A DNA stretch of 64,000 nucleotides from a virus (IMGVR_UViG_3300042453_005424:10455-74454), one strand, 5' to 3'. Counted from the first letter of the stretch, positions 18,627-46,338 are shown. A program made the numbers and translations. The notes: generated from the sequence alone by a model not told the origin.

Positions 18627-19202
18627 TTATTTAGAAGCTGCGGCAGCTCCTTGAAACTCTTTCGGTATAGCTTCAGGATGTCCTGTAAACCAAGCTGTTT
18701 GGCGGTCCATTTCTTCTCGGCTAATTTTTGATGGATCACTGTATATGCTCGCGGCGGCGGCCTGAGCTGGGGATAATTTCCCTTGAGCCACATTTTCTTT
18801 TAGTTCGATAAGTCTACTAATAAAATTTTCTTTTCTTATTTGTTTAAGTGCGGATTCGCGGCCCATACCTTTACCTAGACGGTAACCTGTATAACCTGGG
18901 ACAAACATAAATTTTGCTCCTCTTCCTAATAACGAGGGGCGGTCTTCGATTACTCTGGTCAACAACTTCTTTTTGAACTCTTCTGGTGTGTCCGATACAT
19001 CACGGAAATGGTTGGTTTTAGCTTTTTCCCTCAGATACCCTGCCCCCATACCCAAAGCAGAAGGAAGGCCGTAGTAGCCCATTTCCATAGCAGGCCCAAA
19101 AAAAGCTTTTTTTGTTAAGGAATCTATCTGAGCCTCCGGTAAACCGGACTCAGAAGCACGCTTTAAAAATCCTTCTATAAATTTTTGCTGCAACGTGCGC
19201 AT
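18627..19202 (-). CDS. Putative head-cargo protein (FxxGF...KxA module plus Gly-rich helix)
   Basis: KFIEGFLKRASESGLPEAQIDSLTKKA then GLPSALGMGAGY. Confidence 0.6.
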   Translation of the reverse strand: MRTLQQKFIEGFLKRASESGLPEAQIDSLTKKAFFGPAMEMGYYGLPSALGMGAGYLREKAKTNHFRDVSDTPEEFKKKLLTRVIEDRPSLLGRGAKFMFVPGYTGYRLGKGMGRESALKQIRKENFISRLIELKENVAQGKLSPAQAAAASIYSDPSKISREEMDRQTAWFTGHPEAIPKEFQGAAAASK

Positions 19203-19208
19203 AAAAAA

Positions 19209-19601
19209 TTATTCGTCTAAAAGACTATAGTTTTGGTCATAACCGAATGCTCGGCGCATCACAGGGTCTTCTGATGCTCCGGCCGATTTAACTGTGGCTA
19301 CTTTACCCATATAAGCAACATCTGATGCAGTACAAACACGCTCAACAATTTTAGCTAGATAACCGAGGTCTTCCTTGGCTTTTTTAAGGAACACTTCCTT
19401 CTCATCGCTATCAGTTATAAAATCAGAATTATATAGAGCATCAGCTGCTTTTTTCAAGGCAGCTTCGGTTTCTTGGTCTTTTTTAACTTTTTCAGCAGCT
19501 TCCTTTACTTGATAATCATGCAACTGATTTTTAAGCTCCTTGATTTCAGCTAAAGCCGATTTTACGAATTCTTCTATTTTGTTAGTTGCTTCGTTTGTCA
19601 T
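19209..19601 (-). CDS. Scaffold-like coiled-coil protein (KxA-rich)
   Basis: Contains KSA, KEA, KKA, KVA motifs. Upstream of the MCP. Confidence 0.55.
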   Translation of the reverse strand: MTNEATNKIEEFVKSALAEIKELKNQLHDYQVKEAAEKVKKDQETEAALKKAADALYNSDFITDSDEKEVFLKKAKEDLGYLAKIVERVCTASDVAYMGKVATVKSAGASEDPVMRRAFGYDQNYSLLDE

Positions 19602-19731
19602 TGTTTGCTTTATCTAGGTTTATCAAGCTGTCTATGTATTCTAAAACTTTTTGCTTGTCTTGATCGTCTAAATAATTAAGCGCGTTTATCGCTTGCTGCT
19701 CGACAGATATTTCTGGCGATGTATCAGGCAT
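19582..19731 (-). CDS. Small 49-aa protein (not in ORF track)
   Basis: MPDTSPEISVEQQAINALNYLDDQDKQKVLEYIDSLINLDKANNDKRSN fills the intergenic gap. Confidence 0.5.
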   Translation of the reverse strand: MPDTSPEISVEQQAINALNYLDDQDKQKVLEYIDSLINLDKANNDKRSN

Positions 19732-19744
19732 TATAAGCTGTTAG

Positions 19745-44079: not shown

Positions 44080-44173
44080 CAAAAATCTCGGGCGAAGAAT
44101 CATTTCGAGCCGGACTGCGTAGAATTTGATTTACTTATAAACACCTATAATTGTATACTGTAGATGAATACTT

Positions 44174-45355
44174 ATGAACGAACAGATCCGGAATTTATTA
44201 AAAAAATCGCGTTGTTGGGAAGGTTATAAGCCTGTTCCAGGTAAAAAGCCTTATACCAAAGATTCTTGTGCGCCGGTGGAAAAGAAGGACCCGGAGAAAG
44301 CAGGTAGCACCAACATTCCACTCTCACCTGAAGAGAGCTATCTGGCTTCGCAGTTAATAGGAAAAAGTCTTTTTAGCGCTATCCAATTAGCTAAAGAAAA
44401 AGAAAGACAACAGAACATTTTAAGCCAAGAGCTGATAGGTGCAGACGGGGGAGATATATTACGTATTCCTATACCTAAGAAACTTCTGCCTAATCCTACA
44501 GGGCAGAAACAAGCCTCTCATACTCCTTCGCCAGAAGCTATGTCAGCTATGCAGGATTTAATAGCTTATAATAATTATGTTCGTAAACACGGTAATCCTG
44601 ATGCTTATGATGAAAAAATAAGACGAGGATTAGATCCGTTACTTAATAGGGTTTCGATGTCGCAGGGTAACCTGCACCGTTTAGGTGATGCCGGGATTAT
44701 GTCTATTTTTCCTTTTGGAAAAGCACATAAACAAAGAAAACAATACGACCAAGACATAGACTGGATCAATAGCGAGTTGAAGAAATCCGCAAACGACGAT
44801 TATTCTGATGCGCTTCACACGAACCACGAACCTGGTGTTTTAGCCCGAGCGCTGAAGTTAAATACACACCCTGTTAAAAAAATAATGGGAATGCAGAGCG
44901 GATTTCGCGACGCTAAAAAAGAATTTTATTTCCAAGAAAAAGCGCAAATTGCCCAAGAGCTGATGAATGCTCAAAAAGAATACATTGAGCTTCTGGAAAG
45001 AATCAAAACCGGTGAAGAAAAGCTCGGTAAAGCCTCGAGTACTCCATGTGTTGACGCTTTTTGCAACGGAATAGCCCATAGCGCGCTTTTTGGAGAGGAG
45101 GCTGCGGCAAAAACCGCTGGTGCTGAAAACGTGGATATCTCCGACGGATCAATAAACCGTCTGCTGAAAGATACTTTTAGCGCAGTGAAAAAACCTTTTC
45201 AACCTGCGGTAGATACTGCGGCAAGCGGGTTACTTGCCACTTCGGCTGGAACAGCATATTTAACATATTTATTGCGTAAAAGAATGCGTGAAGAACCTGA
45301 AAAATATATGCAGGAAAAATTGCCTACCAGAGTGGAGCTGCAGCCTTATGAGTAA
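44174..45355 (+). CDS. Multi-module putative head protein
   Basis: LKKS-RCWEGYKPVPGKKPYTKDSC, QKQAS, LKKSA, AKTAG. Confidence 0.6.
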   Translation: MNEQIRNLLKKSRCWEGYKPVPGKKPYTKDSCAPVEKKDPEKAGSTNIPLSPEESYLASQLIGKSLFSAIQLAKEKERQQNILSQELIGADGGDILRIPIPKKLLPNPTGQKQASHTPSPEAMSAMQDLIAYNNYVRKHGNPDAYDEKIRRGLDPLLNRVSMSQGNLHRLGDAGIMSIFPFGKAHKQRKQYDQDIDWINSELKKSANDDYSDALHTNHEPGVLARALKLNTHPVKKIMGMQSGFRDAKKEFYFQEKAQIAQELMNAQKEYIELLERIKTGEEKLGKASSTPCVDAFCNGIAHSALFGEEAAAKTAGAENVDISDGSINRLLKDTFSAVKKPFQPAVDTAASGLLATSAGTAYLTYLLRKRMREEPEKYMQEKLPTRVELQPYE

Positions 45356-45707
45356 CCTCAAAGCAGCTTTTAACGCGGGGTTTTTAAAACGTGCCGAGGC
45401 TCGAGGTTTTCGAGAAGATCAGGCAGCCATGCTTCTAGGCAAAACAGCAGGAAACGGTGCATTGATAGGACGATTAATGAGTACAGCAAAAAACCTCCAC
45501 AATGTTTGGCCAGCCATGTCTAAAACAAGCCCTGCGGCATACGATAAAATGTATAATACGTATAATACACTCAAAGGGCTCATGAGCCAGGGAATAGCTC
45601 CCAAAACAAACCCTAGCAGAAGAACAATACAGGCTGATTATACTAGGCTGTTGAAACACCGAGTGAATAATTTGAATCCCCAGGCGAGCAAACTTCAATC
45701 AAAGTAA
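45348..45707 (+). CDS. Putative head-cargo protein (FxxGF...KxA module)
   Basis: MSNLKAAFNAGFLKRAEARGFREDQAAMLLGKTAG. Start revised from 45288. Confidence 0.6.
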   Translation: MSNLKAAFNAGFLKRAEARGFREDQAAMLLGKTAGNGALIGRLMSTAKNLHNVWPAMSKTSPAAYDKMYNTYNTLKGLMSQGIAPKTNPSRRTIQADYTRLLKHRVNNLNPQASKLQSK

Positions 45708-45714
45708 CTGCACA

Positions 45715-46338
45715 ATGAATTTAGACTGGACTGCATGCAATAAAGGAATAGCTGATGAACTAGAGAAACACGCCCGCTGGGGAGCTATTGGTAACGCAGC
45801 TAAGCAAGTTTTTAATTTAGGCAGAAAAGCTTTTTTACCTGCAGCCGCCGCTGGTGGTGCTTTTACGTTAGGAAAAGGTTTGTATAACAAATATAGGGAT
45901 ATCACAGGAACTATAGACGGTGTAGGAAATGCTATAAACAAGCTGGCTCCGGTAGGCCTTATGGCTATGCTGGCATCAGGTATGCGCAAAAGCGCACCCC
46001 AACTTCCCACACCTGCGCCTAGAGGAGCCTTTGATGCTAAGTCTTTATTGGGTGTTAACCCTGCCGGGGTGTCTACACTAACCTCACCTAAAGTAGGTCC
46101 TATGAATATAAAAATTGCGAATCCTCTTTATGACCCTTTGCTTTGGGCTGCGAGAAATCGCGTAGCTAACCATGTTTTAAACGAAGTAACAAAGACAAGT
46201 CCGTCAGGGGCTGGTGAAAGAGCAAAACTAACCGAAGAAAATCCTAAAAAAATTGAATTAACCTCTAAATATCCTGAGCTTGCAAAGTTATTAGAAGACG
46301 AAGAAAACAAAGCTTATTTAAACAAATTGCTAGCATAA
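45715..46338 (+). CDS. Putative head-cargo protein
   Basis: CNKGIADELEKHA, IKIA, Gly/Ala helices. Confidence 0.6.
   Translation: MNLDWTACNKGIADELEKHARWGAIGNAAKQVFNLGRKAFLPAAAAGGAFTLGKGLYNKYRDITGTIDGVGNAINKLAPVGLMAMLASGMRKSAPQLPTPAPRGAFDAKSLLGVNPAGVSTLTSPKVGPMNIKIANPLYDPLLWAARNRVANHVLNEVTKTSPSGAGERAKLTEENPKKIELTSKYPELAKLLEDEENKAYLNKLLA

What the first reader, a model, noticed from the sequence alone, without database searches (positions are those of the whole stretch)
18627..46338. Many glycine-zipper hydrophobic helices in the putative cargo proteins, possibly an ejected membrane-active apparatus
Seen: GxxxG tracts in 18627, 20728, 23243, 24891, 28773, 40374 (very long, GALGGSMLGPLGTVAGGLGGAALGGLGVGG), 42941, 43338 and 45715. 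They usually follow a KxA motif and have no signal peptide. Inference: once released by proteolysis, they could insert into the host membrane on ejection. This could form a DNA/RNAP delivery channel or an early vesicle-like compartment, by analogy to phiKZ ejected proteins.
Basis: inference. Interest (0 to 1): 0.65.

Follow-up and report, generated by a model that had tools for sequence, protein, structure and literature searches.

The report
Glycine-zipper helices in phage head proteins
An uncultured ~190-kb phage carries fast-evolving proteins beside its head-assembly genes that keep weakly greasy, glycine-rich helices, probably packed in the head and injected to act on the host membrane, though neither packing nor membrane action has been shown.

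Summary
The window is a fragment of an uncultured ~190-kb phage, distantly related (27-32% aa) to Salmonella phage Arash and Vibrio phage D69. The glycine-zipper tracts are real and not chance. There are 12 strict tracts in the two flagged gene blocks against 0.75 expected from shuffles (0 of 1000). Gly shows i,i+4 periodicity. 7 of 10 members of the 28773 family match Pfam Gly-zipper_YMGG. Only 5 of the 9 named ORFs hold strong tracts. K-x-A lies within 45 residues upstream of only 8 of 19 tracts.

The carrier proteins evolve fast (about 30-50% identity, or no match, against 54-89% for neighbours) but keep the tracts in place. They have no signal peptide. The tracts have positively charged flanks and are too weakly hydrophobic for ordinary membrane insertion.

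Many carriers belong to a larger system. A ~33-residue leader module (578 clusters at 50% identity) is often bounded by K-x-A and followed by a zipper helix.

In Arash, proteins in matching positions that carry zipper helices were detected in virions by mass spectrometry. The best reading (0.45) is head-packed, injected, membrane-inserting proteins. Membrane action, a channel and a vesicle role are all untested. Earlier notes of this scan describe the same kind of feature on other phage genomes.

The parts
16990..17946 (-). Major capsid protein (context)
   Evidence: tblastn to the Arash major capsid protein gp226: 27.8% identity over 97% of the query, E 3e-24. 86-89% identical in relatives L007-L011. 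A K-x-A-[AG] site near the N-terminus is kept in the window, Arash and Vibrio phage D69.
18627..19202 (-). Small basic protein with the N-terminal leader module (DNA 19080-19199); only marginal GxxxG pairs
   Evidence: Leader found by the A3 profile (G000 match, E 7.9e-18). No strict or relaxed zipper tract. Net charge +9. Only 2 clusters found in 5.8 billion proteins.
19209..20668 (-). Two acidic, Ala/Lys/Glu-rich scaffold-like proteins (19209-19601, 19745-20668), dense in conserved K-x-A
   Evidence: 7 and 13 K-x-A sites. 6 and 11 of them are kept as [KR]-x-[AGS] in all 6 aligned relatives. Net charge -6 and -19. The scaffold role is inferred.
20728..21741 (-). Two leader modules (21259-21378, 21022-21141) followed by a glycine-zipper helix (20782-20841), directly downstream of the protease
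   Evidence: It matches Arash gp223 and D69 0271 in position; each of those holds three leader-like repeats. The zipper is kept in 4 of the 5 relatives (all but L007).
21803..23239 (-). Prohead (head maturation) protease with a C-terminal extension (context)
   Evidence: phrog_18299, E 5.9e-9. Homologous to Arash gp222: tblastn E 3e-24 and profile E 7.9e-29.
23243..24889 (-). 548-aa all-helical protein with a C-terminal TM-like zipper helix (23348-23413) and an internal zipper tract (24572-24616)
   Evidence: The C-terminal tract and its flanks are the best-kept part of a 20-sequence family (alignment). AlphaFold2 mean pLDDT 71.4; the tract lies inside helix 485-521. No K-x-A.
24891..25826 (-). 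311-aa basic protein with two zipper tracts (25119-25169, 24999-25070)
   Evidence: Net charge +13. No detectable homologue in the related loci or in Arash.
28773..29729 (-). 318-aa basic protein with four zipper helices (29379-29435, 29181-29240, 28962-29027, 28800-28847)
   Evidence: All four tracts are kept in position in a 10-sequence family. 7 of 10 members match Pfam PF13441 Gly-zipper_YMGG (best E 2.9e-7); the window copy does not. AlphaFold2 predicts helices over all four tracts but with a mean pLDDT of only 51.7.
32013..38422 (-). Multisubunit RNA polymerase genes (beta' C-part 32013-33872; beta-C/beta'-N fusion 35432-38422) inside the head block (context)
   Evidence: Pfam Rpb2_6 E 1.4e-48; Rpb1 domains. 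The Arash homologues gp206 and gp216 are the most-detected and fifth most-detected virion proteins.
40191..42356 (+). 721-aa frame (660 aa from the ATG at 40374) with six zipper tracts: 40476-40532, 40566-40625, 40629-40682, 41871-42032 (54 aa), 42126-42170, 42189-42236
   Evidence: The C-terminal tracts are kept in L013 and L012. Two degenerate leader-like motifs. No Pfam or PHROG match.
42941..43694 (+). Two small proteins (42941-43333, 43338-43694) with short hydrophobic Gly/Ala helices (strongest at 43542-43580)
   Evidence: 48-57% identical in relatives, with the hydrophobic parts kept. The L012 homologue of 43338 carries a 49-residue zipper insertion.
44174..45355 (+).
   Evidence: The tract and its flanks are nearly identical in L012 and L013.
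45348..45707 (+). Small very basic protein starting with the leader module (45348-45467). The listed ORF starts at the GTG at 45288; the ATG at 45348 is the likelier start.
   Evidence: A3 profile match, E 7.7e-16. Alignment A3. Net charge +17 for the long frame.
45715..46338 (+). 207-aa basic protein with two short Ala/Gly hydrophobic tracts (45829-45873, 45943-45984)
   Evidence: 30-45% identical in pieces to relatives of very different length (262 and 608 aa).

Best explanation
These are internal head ('cargo' or ejection) proteins of an orphan ~190-kb phage lineage that packs its own multisubunit RNA polymerase.

Proposed steps:
1. Each protein carries one or more marginally hydrophobic glycine-zipper helices (small-xxx-small faces, positive flanks, no signal peptide). 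The weak hydrophobicity keeps the protein soluble during assembly and in the capsid.
2. Many belong to a cassette system: a ~33-residue leader module, often preceded by K-x-A, then a linker, then a zipper helix.
3. The leader is inferred to load them into the prohead.
4. The prohead protease is inferred to cut at K-x-A.
5. After ejection the zipper helices are inferred to self-associate and insert into the host inner membrane. There they would anchor or help form the passage for DNA and the co-ejected polymerase, in the manner of the TM segments of podovirus ejection proteins and the Tde1 glycine zipper of type VI secretion.

Shown here: the tracts, their non-randomness, their periodicity, their positional conservation under fast divergence, and their genomic placement.
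Shown in a distant relative only: virion presence of counterparts in matching positions.
Inferred: loading, cleavage, ejection and membrane action.
For: Non-random, periodic, recognised as zippers:
- 12 tracts against 0.75 expected, 0 of 1000 shuffles.
- Gly i,i+4 excess, z 2.0 in the window and z 5.5 in relatives.
- 7 of 10 members of the 28773 family hit PF13441, best E 2.9e-7.

Constraint on the tracts themselves:
- Carriers are 29-59% identical, in pieces, or unmatched (24891, 18627, 45288). Neighbours are 54-89% identical.
- The tracts nevertheless stay in register.

Membrane-like but not Sec-type:
- No charged residue for 16-54 residues.
- N-terminal flank net charge +1.1 to +1.6 per 10 residues, against about 0.1 protein-wide. 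41-44% of tracts end with an aromatic residue.
- No signal peptide or lipobox.
- Apparent insertion energy +3.5 to +5.2 kcal/mol, against -0.3 and -2.0 for two ordinary membrane proteins of the window (scale values recalled).
- Several tracts are near the C-terminus.

Placement:
- The tracts flank the prohead protease and capsid gene.
- In the 97%-complete relative G004, zipper-type genes cluster in the head block, the block-B equivalent and a leader-gene array (typing by eye).

Virion evidence in Arash (PMC10585845, section with Table 2 read):
- gp221 (355 spectra) has a 22-residue zipper helix and gp224 (222 spectra) has three.
- gp223 and gp225 have leader-like repeats.
- gp4 (1952 spectra, second highest) has a 40-residue zipper and gp97 (1060 spectra) several.
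- The polymerase and a sigma factor are packed too.
- The same head-block layout is present in Vibrio phage D69.

Leader-zipper linkage:
- 63 of 149 leader-bearing representatives hold at least one tract: 84 tracts against 4.8 expected.

Precedents:
- T7 gp14-like proteins have 4-5 predicted TM helices. gp16 is soluble despite TM regions and refolds into the inner membrane. These families diverge fast (PMC8954989, passages).
- The Tde1 glycine zipper is needed for membrane permeabilisation and delivery (PMC10240207, abstract).
Against: - No window zipper protein has a detectable homologue in Arash, by profile and phmmer searches. The proteomic support therefore rests on position and likeness only.
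- The Arash list is permissive: 116 of 252 proteins, including metabolic enzymes.
- Positive insertion energies could equally mean the helices never enter a membrane.
- The AlphaFold2 models are of moderate or poor confidence at the tracts (pLDDT about 55 for 23243; mean 51.7 for 28773).
- No fold match to any ejection protein. Foldseek's best E is 0.26. The VIA search gives only generic helical hairpins at Z 9.2 or below.
- Block B (40191-46338) is a divergent operon beside polymerase genes, not beside capsid genes.
- Contractile-tailed phages are generally thought to deliver DNA through the tail tube without an ejectosome (PMC8954989, passage).
Confidence: 0.45

Rival explanations
1. The proteins are packed in the head, but the glycine-zipper helices act inside the capsid. 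They would pack tightly helix to helix to build an inner core or scaffold remnant, or help basic proteins condense DNA. They would have no role in the host membrane.
For: - Gly/Ala faces allow very close helix packing.
- Most strong carriers are basic: net charge +11, +13 and +20 for 23243, 24891 and 28773. T4 internal proteins contact DNA through lysines (PMC3012670, passage).
- Insertion energies are positive.
- phiKZ-type phages build an inner body from paralogous, proteolysed proteins (bioRxiv 10.1101/2024.03.24.586471, passages).
Against: - The tracts are uniformly apolar for 16-54 residues, not amphipathic as in soluble bundles. This was judged by eye; the hydrophobic moment was not computed.
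- Positive flanks and terminal aromatics are membrane-interface features.
- Pfam's glycine-zipper families, which 7 of 10 family members hit, are membrane-associated.
- 20728 and 40191 are acidic or neutral.
Confidence: 0.25
2. The proteins are not virion components. They are tail-anchored or hairpin membrane proteins made late in the infected cell, for example tethering prohead assembly to the inner membrane, or taking part in host takeover or lysis control.
For: - C-terminal hydrophobic helices with basic flanks in 23243, 44174 and 20728 fit tail-anchored proteins.
- The Arash virion list may include contaminants.
- Block B is not next to capsid genes.
Against: - Hydrophobicity is far below that of the window's ordinary membrane proteins.
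- The genes are interleaved with the protease, scaffold-like and capsid genes on one strand.
- Arash counterparts were detected with 8-60 unique peptides and high spectral counts; gp4 and gp97 are among the top ten.
- A leader shared by many unrelated small proteins fits a sorting tag better than a membrane anchor.
Confidence: 0.15
3. The tracts are low-complexity Gly/Ala linkers with no specific role, arising from composition and repeat slippage in fast-evolving genes.
For: - The carriers are Gly- and Ala-rich overall, up to 13.6% Gly and 15.7% Ala.
- Tract length varies between relatives; for example a 49-residue insertion in the L012 homologue of 43338.
Against: - Within-protein shuffles that keep composition give 0.75 tracts against 12 observed.
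- The i,i+4 periodicity is beyond composition.
- The tracts are kept in position while the flanks diverge, and the 23243 C-terminal tract is the best-conserved part of its family.
Confidence: 0.03

Closest known systems
Podovirus ejection (internal virion) proteins: T7 gp14/gp15/gp16, P22 gp7/gp20/gp16
   Same: - Internal head proteins that are soluble before ejection yet carry predicted TM helices.
- They insert into the host envelope after ejection to form the DNA passage.
- They diverge very fast, 7-19% identity between groups (PMC8954989, passages).
- The window's carriers share fast divergence, TM-like helices without signal peptides, and head-block location.
   Different: - No sequence or fold similarity.
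- The lineage's cultured member Arash is a contractile-tailed phage.
- The helices here are Gly/Ala zippers of marginal hydrophobicity, there are many carrier genes, and many are coupled to a shared leader module.
- Neither ejection nor membrane insertion has been shown.
T4 internal proteins (IPI-III, Alt) with the capsid targeting sequence
   Same: A diverse, fast-changing set of packed and injected proteins that share only a short conserved N-terminal targeting sequence, which loads them into the scaffolding core (PMC3012670, passages). Here a conserved leader sits on many unrelated small proteins.
   Different: - The leader is about 33 residues and helix-loop-helix-like. It also occurs internally in tandem cassettes bounded by K-x-A.
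- Packaging and removal are untested.
- T4 internal proteins are not known for glycine-zipper helices (recalled).
phiKZ / SPN3US inner-body and ejection proteins
   Same: - Large phages with a virion RNA polymerase.
- Several paralogous head proteins that are proteolysed during packaging and co-injected. In phiKZ these are found with a lipid-rich early vesicle (bioRxiv 10.1101/2024.03.24.586471, passages).
- SPN3US has a large mass of ejection proteins and protease-cut head proteins (PMC5694885 and PMC7411985, search listing only).
   Different: - No PF12699 match in the window's proteins.
- A different cut-motif candidate, K-x-A. The phiKZ-type motif is recalled as S/A/G-x-E, and that pattern is not enriched here (z -1.03).
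- No evidence for a vesicle or a phage nucleus in this lineage.
Tde1-type glycine-zipper effectors of type VI secretion
   Same: The protein is delivered by a contractile, phage-tail-like machine. Consecutive GxxxG motifs permeabilise the target's cytoplasmic membrane and are required for delivery of the attached domain (PMC10240207, abstract).
   Different: A bacterial toxin system, with the zipper at the N-terminus of a DNase. No homology was tested or claimed. Here the zipper segments are in phage head-block proteins with no recognisable enzymatic domain.
Pfam glycine-zipper families of bacterial outer-membrane lipoproteins (PF13441 YMGG, PF13436, PF13488)
   Same: The same repeated small-xxx-Gly helix-hairpin signature. 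7 of 10 members of the 28773 family match PF13441 at E 1 or below, best 2.9e-7.
   Different: - The window's own copy scores 8.2 bits against a cut-off of 28.9.
- No signal peptide or lipobox.
- Phage head-block context.

Membership tests
Pfam glycine-zipper families (PF13441 / PF13436 / PF13488) | Profile match at or above the curated cut-off | tested here: inconclusive
   Window 28773 scores E 2.6, 8.2 bits, against a cut-off of 28.9. The other nine window carriers have no match. At family level, 7 of 10 members match PF13441 at E 1 or below (best 2.9e-7), 3 match PF13436 and 2 match PF13488.
Pfam glycine-zipper families (PF13441 / PF13436 / PF13488) | Secreted lipoprotein context (signal peptide with lipobox); this feature is recalled | tested here: not met
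   None of 11 proteins has a hydrophobic N-terminal region or a lipobox.
Podovirus ejection proteins (T7 gp14/15/16, P22 gp7/20/16) | Sequence homology to the families | tested here: not met
   None of the zipper or leader proteins among the 28 proteins of the region matches a PHROG or Pfam family of internal virion or ejection proteins.
Podovirus ejection proteins (T7 gp14/15/16, P22 gp7/20/16) | Shared fold | tested here: inconclusive
   Only the 23243 model was searched. Foldseek against PDB gives 0 matches at E 0.001 or below; a cyanophage pre-ejectosome chain appears at E 1.8. The VIA wide search gives only generic helical hairpins at Z 9.2 or below.
Podovirus ejection proteins (T7 gp14/15/16, P22 gp7/20/16) | Present in virions, ejected, inserted into the host envelope | not testable with these tools
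   Only indirect evidence: Arash counterparts in matching positions are in its virion proteome.
T4-type internal proteins with a capsid targeting sequence | Short conserved N-terminal tag shared by otherwise unrelated proteins | tested here: met
   The leader profile A3 finds 578 representative clusters. The module starts within the first 12 residues in 91 of 149 listed hits, and the C-terminal parts are unrelated. There are 4-8 matches per related genome record. This is an analogy, not homology.
T4-type internal proteins with a capsid targeting sequence | The tag loads the protein into the prohead and is removed by the prohead protease | not testable with these tools
   A prohead protease is present. 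K-x-A-[AGS] directly precedes 94 of 130 internal leaders. No cleavage data.
phiKZ inner-body / injected protein family (PF12699) | Pfam PF12699 domain | tested here: not met
   No PF12699 match in the 28 proteins of the region at E 0.01 or below, nor in the 10 carriers at E 5 or below.
Tde1-type glycine-zipper translocation motif | Consecutive GxxxG motifs on one helix | tested here: met
   Up to 7 GxxxG in one tract and 4 in two others. Gly lag-4 excess.
Tde1-type glycine-zipper translocation motif | Gly-dependent membrane permeabilisation and delivery | not testable with these tools
   Needs experiments.

The most novel reading that the evidence does not exclude
The leader - linker - glycine-zipper cassettes, bounded by K-x-A, are a polymorphic injected payload. 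The leader loads them into the prohead and the protease frees them. On ejection the zipper helices self-insert into the inner membrane to carry or anchor the co-packed multisubunit RNA polymerase, sigma factor and genome end (Tde1-like self-translocation). Alternatively they remodel host membrane into an early protective compartment. If so, this would be a protein-delivery principle shared by a large uncultured phage group and distinct from podovirus ejectosomes.
Probability: 0.2. Interest if true: 0.8.

Novelty: new variant of a known kind. Interest (0 to 1): 0.5.

Why it matters
How large contractile-tailed phages move DNA, and especially large co-packed enzymes such as a multisubunit RNA polymerase, across the inner membrane is poorly understood. 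A conserved, abundant class of weakly hydrophobic glycine-zipper proteins encoded in the head block is a concrete set of candidates for that step. They are coupled to a portable leader and a candidate protease motif. The leader could also serve as a tag for loading foreign proteins into capsids.

The system can be tested now, because the same head-block layout exists in cultured phages (Salmonella phage Arash, Vibrio phage D69).

The held paper library has no paper that links glycine zippers with phage virion or ejection proteins. One search found 2 papers holding all terms, neither on this topic judging by title and abstract start. A second found 10 papers, none containing 'GxxxG'.

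Tried and rejected
- PHROGs and Pfam on all 63 window ORFs: no family for any zipper or leader protein.
- Profile HMMs of 22 window protein families (singletons by phmmer) against Arash ORFs: only the protease, 26219 (about gp220, E 2.7e-4) and 29750 (gp218) match. The first attempt timed out.
- phmmer of 3691, 620, 2271, 40191 and 24891 against Arash: no matches. 7837 gave one weak match (E 6e-4).
- Word-index homologue searches found small families only: 2, 15 and 6 clusters.
- Foldseek against PDB on the 23243 model: nothing at E 0.001 or below. VIA wide: only generic antiparallel helical hairpins over residues 178-349, Z 9.2 or below, under the level quoted for helical models.
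- The 28773 model was too poor (mean pLDDT 51.7) to search.
- ESM Atlas on 40374-42356: best score 0.79, viral hypothetical clusters, uninformative.
- Leader profile against PDB sequences: best E 0.048, no stretch passing. There is a faint likeness of its second half to helix-hairpin-helix repeats of topoisomerase V (E 0.089), not significant.
- Leader profile against Arash ORFs: the top hit is the protein in the matching position, gp223, but at E 0.089.
- tblastn of a leader protein against 50,697 GenBank phage records: no match at E 1 or below.
- Search for relatives of 39026-40234 in viral contigs: none.
- The search for related loci with alignment A3 was not possible because the alignment has no conserved 7-10-column stretch.
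- A look by eye for a shared promoter-like motif upstream of block genes found nothing convincing.
- Complex prediction (four copies of the 23243 C-terminal part, residues 455-548) never entered the queue, so homo-oligomerisation was not tested.
- A hydrophobic-moment calculation was not carried out.
- Rejected: the reading that tracts sit directly behind K-x-A (8 of 19). Rejected: membership in the phiKZ PF12699 family.

Full report
WHAT THE WINDOW IS
The window is bases 10455-74454 of a 74.4-kb virus record judged 38% complete. GC content is 37-49%.

Its capsid protein, prohead protease and RNA polymerase pieces are 26-32% identical to those of two cultured phage groups:
- Salmonella phage Arash, a 180.8-kb contractile-tailed 'orphan' phage.
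- Vibrio phages D69, D181 and D148.

Closer uncultured relatives exist; the protease is about 69% identical. One record, G004, is 189.6 kb and 97% complete.

Recognisable genes around the finding:
- Major capsid protein, 16990-17946.
- Prohead protease, 21803-23239.
- A homologue of Arash virion protein gp218, 29750-31939.
- Multisubunit RNA polymerase pieces at 32013-33872, 35432-38422, 46593-47258 and 53798-54490.
- A sigma factor, 2-613.

None of the proteins named in the finding matches any Pfam or PHROG family at E 0.01 or below.

Yes for the core, less so at the edges.

I defined a tract as at least 16 residues free of D/E/K/R/Q/N/H, at least 15% Gly, and mean Kyte-Doolittle hydropathy of at least 0.7.
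- The two flagged blocks (19 proteins) hold 12 tracts in five proteins. Within-protein shuffles give 0.75 (maximum 5; 0 of 1000 reach 12).
- The 44 other proteins hold 4 tracts against 2.43 expected.

A looser filter adds 43338, 45715 and 44174, but not 18627 or 42941.

The 54-residue tract in the 40191/40374 protein is there.

Three further checks:
- Inside the tracts, Gly-Gly spacing of four residues exceeds what composition gives: window z 2.0; 37 tracts of relatives z 5.5. These are helical zippers rather than Gly-rich filler.
- Pfam's curated zipper model PF13441 matches 7 of 10 members of the 28773 family (best E 2.9e-7), although not the window's own copy.
- None of 11 proteins has a signal peptide or lipobox.

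THE K-x-A CLAIM
K-x-A is enriched in the blocks (86 against 54.1, z 4.85), and it is not enriched outside them. But only 8 of 19 tracts have one within 45 residues upstream. The strongest carriers have none (23243) or one (28773).

The motif is concentrated and conserved elsewhere:
- the scaffold-like proteins 19209 and 19745,
- 26219,
- the protease,
- 29750.

The same enrichment appears in Arash head proteins gp218-226: 46 against 21.6, z 5.7. A K-x-A-[AG] site near the capsid protein's N-terminus is shared by the window, Arash and D69. That pattern fits a protease recognition motif for the whole lineage, but no cleavage has been measured.

EVOLUTION OF THE CARRIERS
- Against four to five relatives, core proteins are 54-89% identical.
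- The carriers are 29-59% identical, usually in pieces. For 24891, 18627 and 45288 there is no match in the fetched loci.
- Lengths vary widely; the 23243 family runs from 393 to 763 residues.
- The tracts keep their places. The C-terminal tract of 23243, with its basic and aromatic flanks, is among the best-conserved parts of a 20-sequence alignment.

PHYSICAL CHARACTER OF THE TRACTS
- The N-terminal flank carries +1.1 to +1.6 net charge per 10 residues, against about 0.1 for the whole proteins. 41-44% of tracts end in an aromatic residue.
- On the Hessa insertion scale (values recalled) the best 19-residue windows cost +3.5 to +5.2 kcal/mol. Two ordinary membrane proteins of the window, 48483 and 60286, score -0.3 and -2.0.
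- The helices are therefore membrane-like but too weak for normal co-translational insertion. That is what would be expected of proteins that must stay soluble until released.
- AlphaFold2 puts every tract in a helix, but with modest confidence: 23243 mean pLDDT 71.4, about 55 at the tract; 28773 mean 51.7.
- Fold searches gave nothing specific.

A LARGER SYSTEM: THE LEADER MODULE
Several carriers and their neighbours share a ~33-residue module, with core Y-[IL]-E-G-F-x-K-R-A-x-E-Y-G followed by a short second helix.

In the window it occurs:
- at the N-terminus of 18627,
- twice in 20728,
- at the probable true start (45348) of the 45288 ORF.

A profile of 13 copies was searched against 1.84 billion representative proteins. 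It finds 578 at E 0.001 or below and 96 at E 1e-10 or below.

Among the 149 listed hits that I read:
- The module is at the extreme N-terminus in 91.
- 63 carry at least one zipper tract: 84 tracts against 4.8 expected by shuffle.
- Of 130 internal modules, 94 are directly preceded by K-x-A-[AGS].

Other facts about the leader:
- Related genomes hold 4-8 matches each, some in tandem arrays of small genes with unrelated C-terminal parts.
- It has no PHROG with a named function. 31 of 35 scanned hits have no PHROG at all.
- It has no solved relative.
- One leader protein used as a tblastn query found no match in GenBank phage records.

VIRION EVIDENCE
This comes only from Arash. I read the section of PMC10585845 that holds Table 2.
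- Mass spectrometry of particles listed 116 proteins.
- The RNA polymerase beta subunit gp206 had the most spectra (3516). The beta' subunit and a sigma factor were also present.
- In the Arash head block, the proteins around the protease were all detected. gp221 has a 22-residue zipper helix and gp224 has three zipper-like tracts. gp223 and gp225 carry repeats resembling the leader.
- The zipper-rich gp4 (1952 spectra) and gp97 (1060 spectra) are among the most abundant.
- Vibrio phage D69 has the same layout: zipper protein, protease, triple-repeat protein, small basic zipper protein, then the capsid gene.

Caveats:
- None of these is detectably homologous to a window carrier.
- The Arash list also contains many enzymes.

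INTERPRETATION
The most likely reading (0.45) is that these are head-packed, injected proteins. Their zipper helices would associate and enter the host inner membrane after ejection.

Closest analogies:
- In mechanism, the TM segments of podovirus ejection proteins (PMC8954989, passages) and the Tde1 glycine zipper of type VI secretion (PMC10240207, abstract).
- In logistics, T4 internal proteins with their targeting sequence (PMC3012670, passages).

Rival readings:
- A purely intracapsid packing or DNA-condensing role (0.25).
- Non-virion membrane proteins of the infected cell (0.15).
- Meaningless low complexity (0.03).

The phiKZ family PF12699 is absent.

EARLIER NOTES OF THIS SCAN
I looked these up after my own analysis. 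Unchecked AI notes on other phage genomes describe the same kinds of feature: glycine-zipper head cargo, K-x-A joints, and a 'GFVKRA' leader. They agree with this report but are not independent evidence.

VERDICT
This is a real, conserved feature. It is a new variant of a known kind (internal or ejection proteins) in an orphan phage lineage. The proposed function is plausible and testable but unproven.

Noticed in passing
window 19080-19199(-), 21259-21378(-), 21022-21141(-), 45348-45467(+); weak match at 11123-11203(-): A ~33-residue leader module (core Y-[IL]-E-G-F-x-K-R-A-x-E-Y-G). It sits on many unrelated small proteins and is repeated inside larger ones. It has 578 representative clusters in public data, no named family, and forms tandem gene arrays in relatives (L015 8374-11328; L016; L017).
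   Followed up: yes
window 16990-31939 (head block); Arash gp218-226; Vibrio phage D69 L028 8224-16960: K-x-A, especially K-x-A-[AG], is 1.6- to 3.6-fold enriched in head-block proteins of both the window and Arash. It is conserved site by site in scaffold-like proteins. It also occurs at the same place near the capsid protein's N-terminus in three deep branches. It is a candidate prohead-protease cut motif.
   Followed up: partly
window 46593-47258(+), 53798-54490(-), 35432-38422(-): The single 1525-aa Arash RNA polymerase gene gp206 corresponds to three separate ORFs here, on both strands and up to 16 kb apart. The third fuses a beta C-terminal part to a beta' N-terminal part.
   Followed up: no
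window 34325-35194(-): A 289-aa protein with about nine tandem copies of a five-residue Ala-Ala-Pro-Gln-Gln unit and Gln-rich ends, lying between the two large polymerase genes. It has no family match.
   Followed up: no
window 48821-50836(+) and 50842-51615(+): Two Gly/Ser/Cys-rich proteins with short Ser-Trp-Gly-Gly-type repeats and Cys clusters, preceded by a small two-helix membrane protein (48483-48821). Possibly tail-fibre or spike parts.
   Followed up: no
window 44174-44290(+) and protein P0151: A Cys-Trp-Glu-Gly-Tyr ... Pro-Gly-Lys ... Ser-Cys motif stands at the N-terminus of the 44174 protein. It stands directly behind a leader-like module in an unrelated metagenomic protein.
   Followed up: no
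L015 3588-7929 (record G004): Two large ORFs (454 and 994 aa) beside the leader-gene array look like cellular genes rather than phage genes. Their sequences recall planctomycete-type DUF1501 and cytochrome-domain proteins (from recall; not scanned). This may hint at the host group.
   Followed up: no
L015 7931-8377 and 9562-9930 (record G004): Small Cys/His-rich ORFs resembling homing endonucleases lie between the tandem leader-bearing genes. This was judged by eye and not scanned.
   Followed up: no
window 54698-62692: A metabolic and auxiliary gene set: dCMP deaminase, an amidase, ribonucleotide reductase, a VWA-like protein, a SET-domain protein (59845-60246), a family-25 glycosyltransferase, and PhoH.
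   Followed up: no
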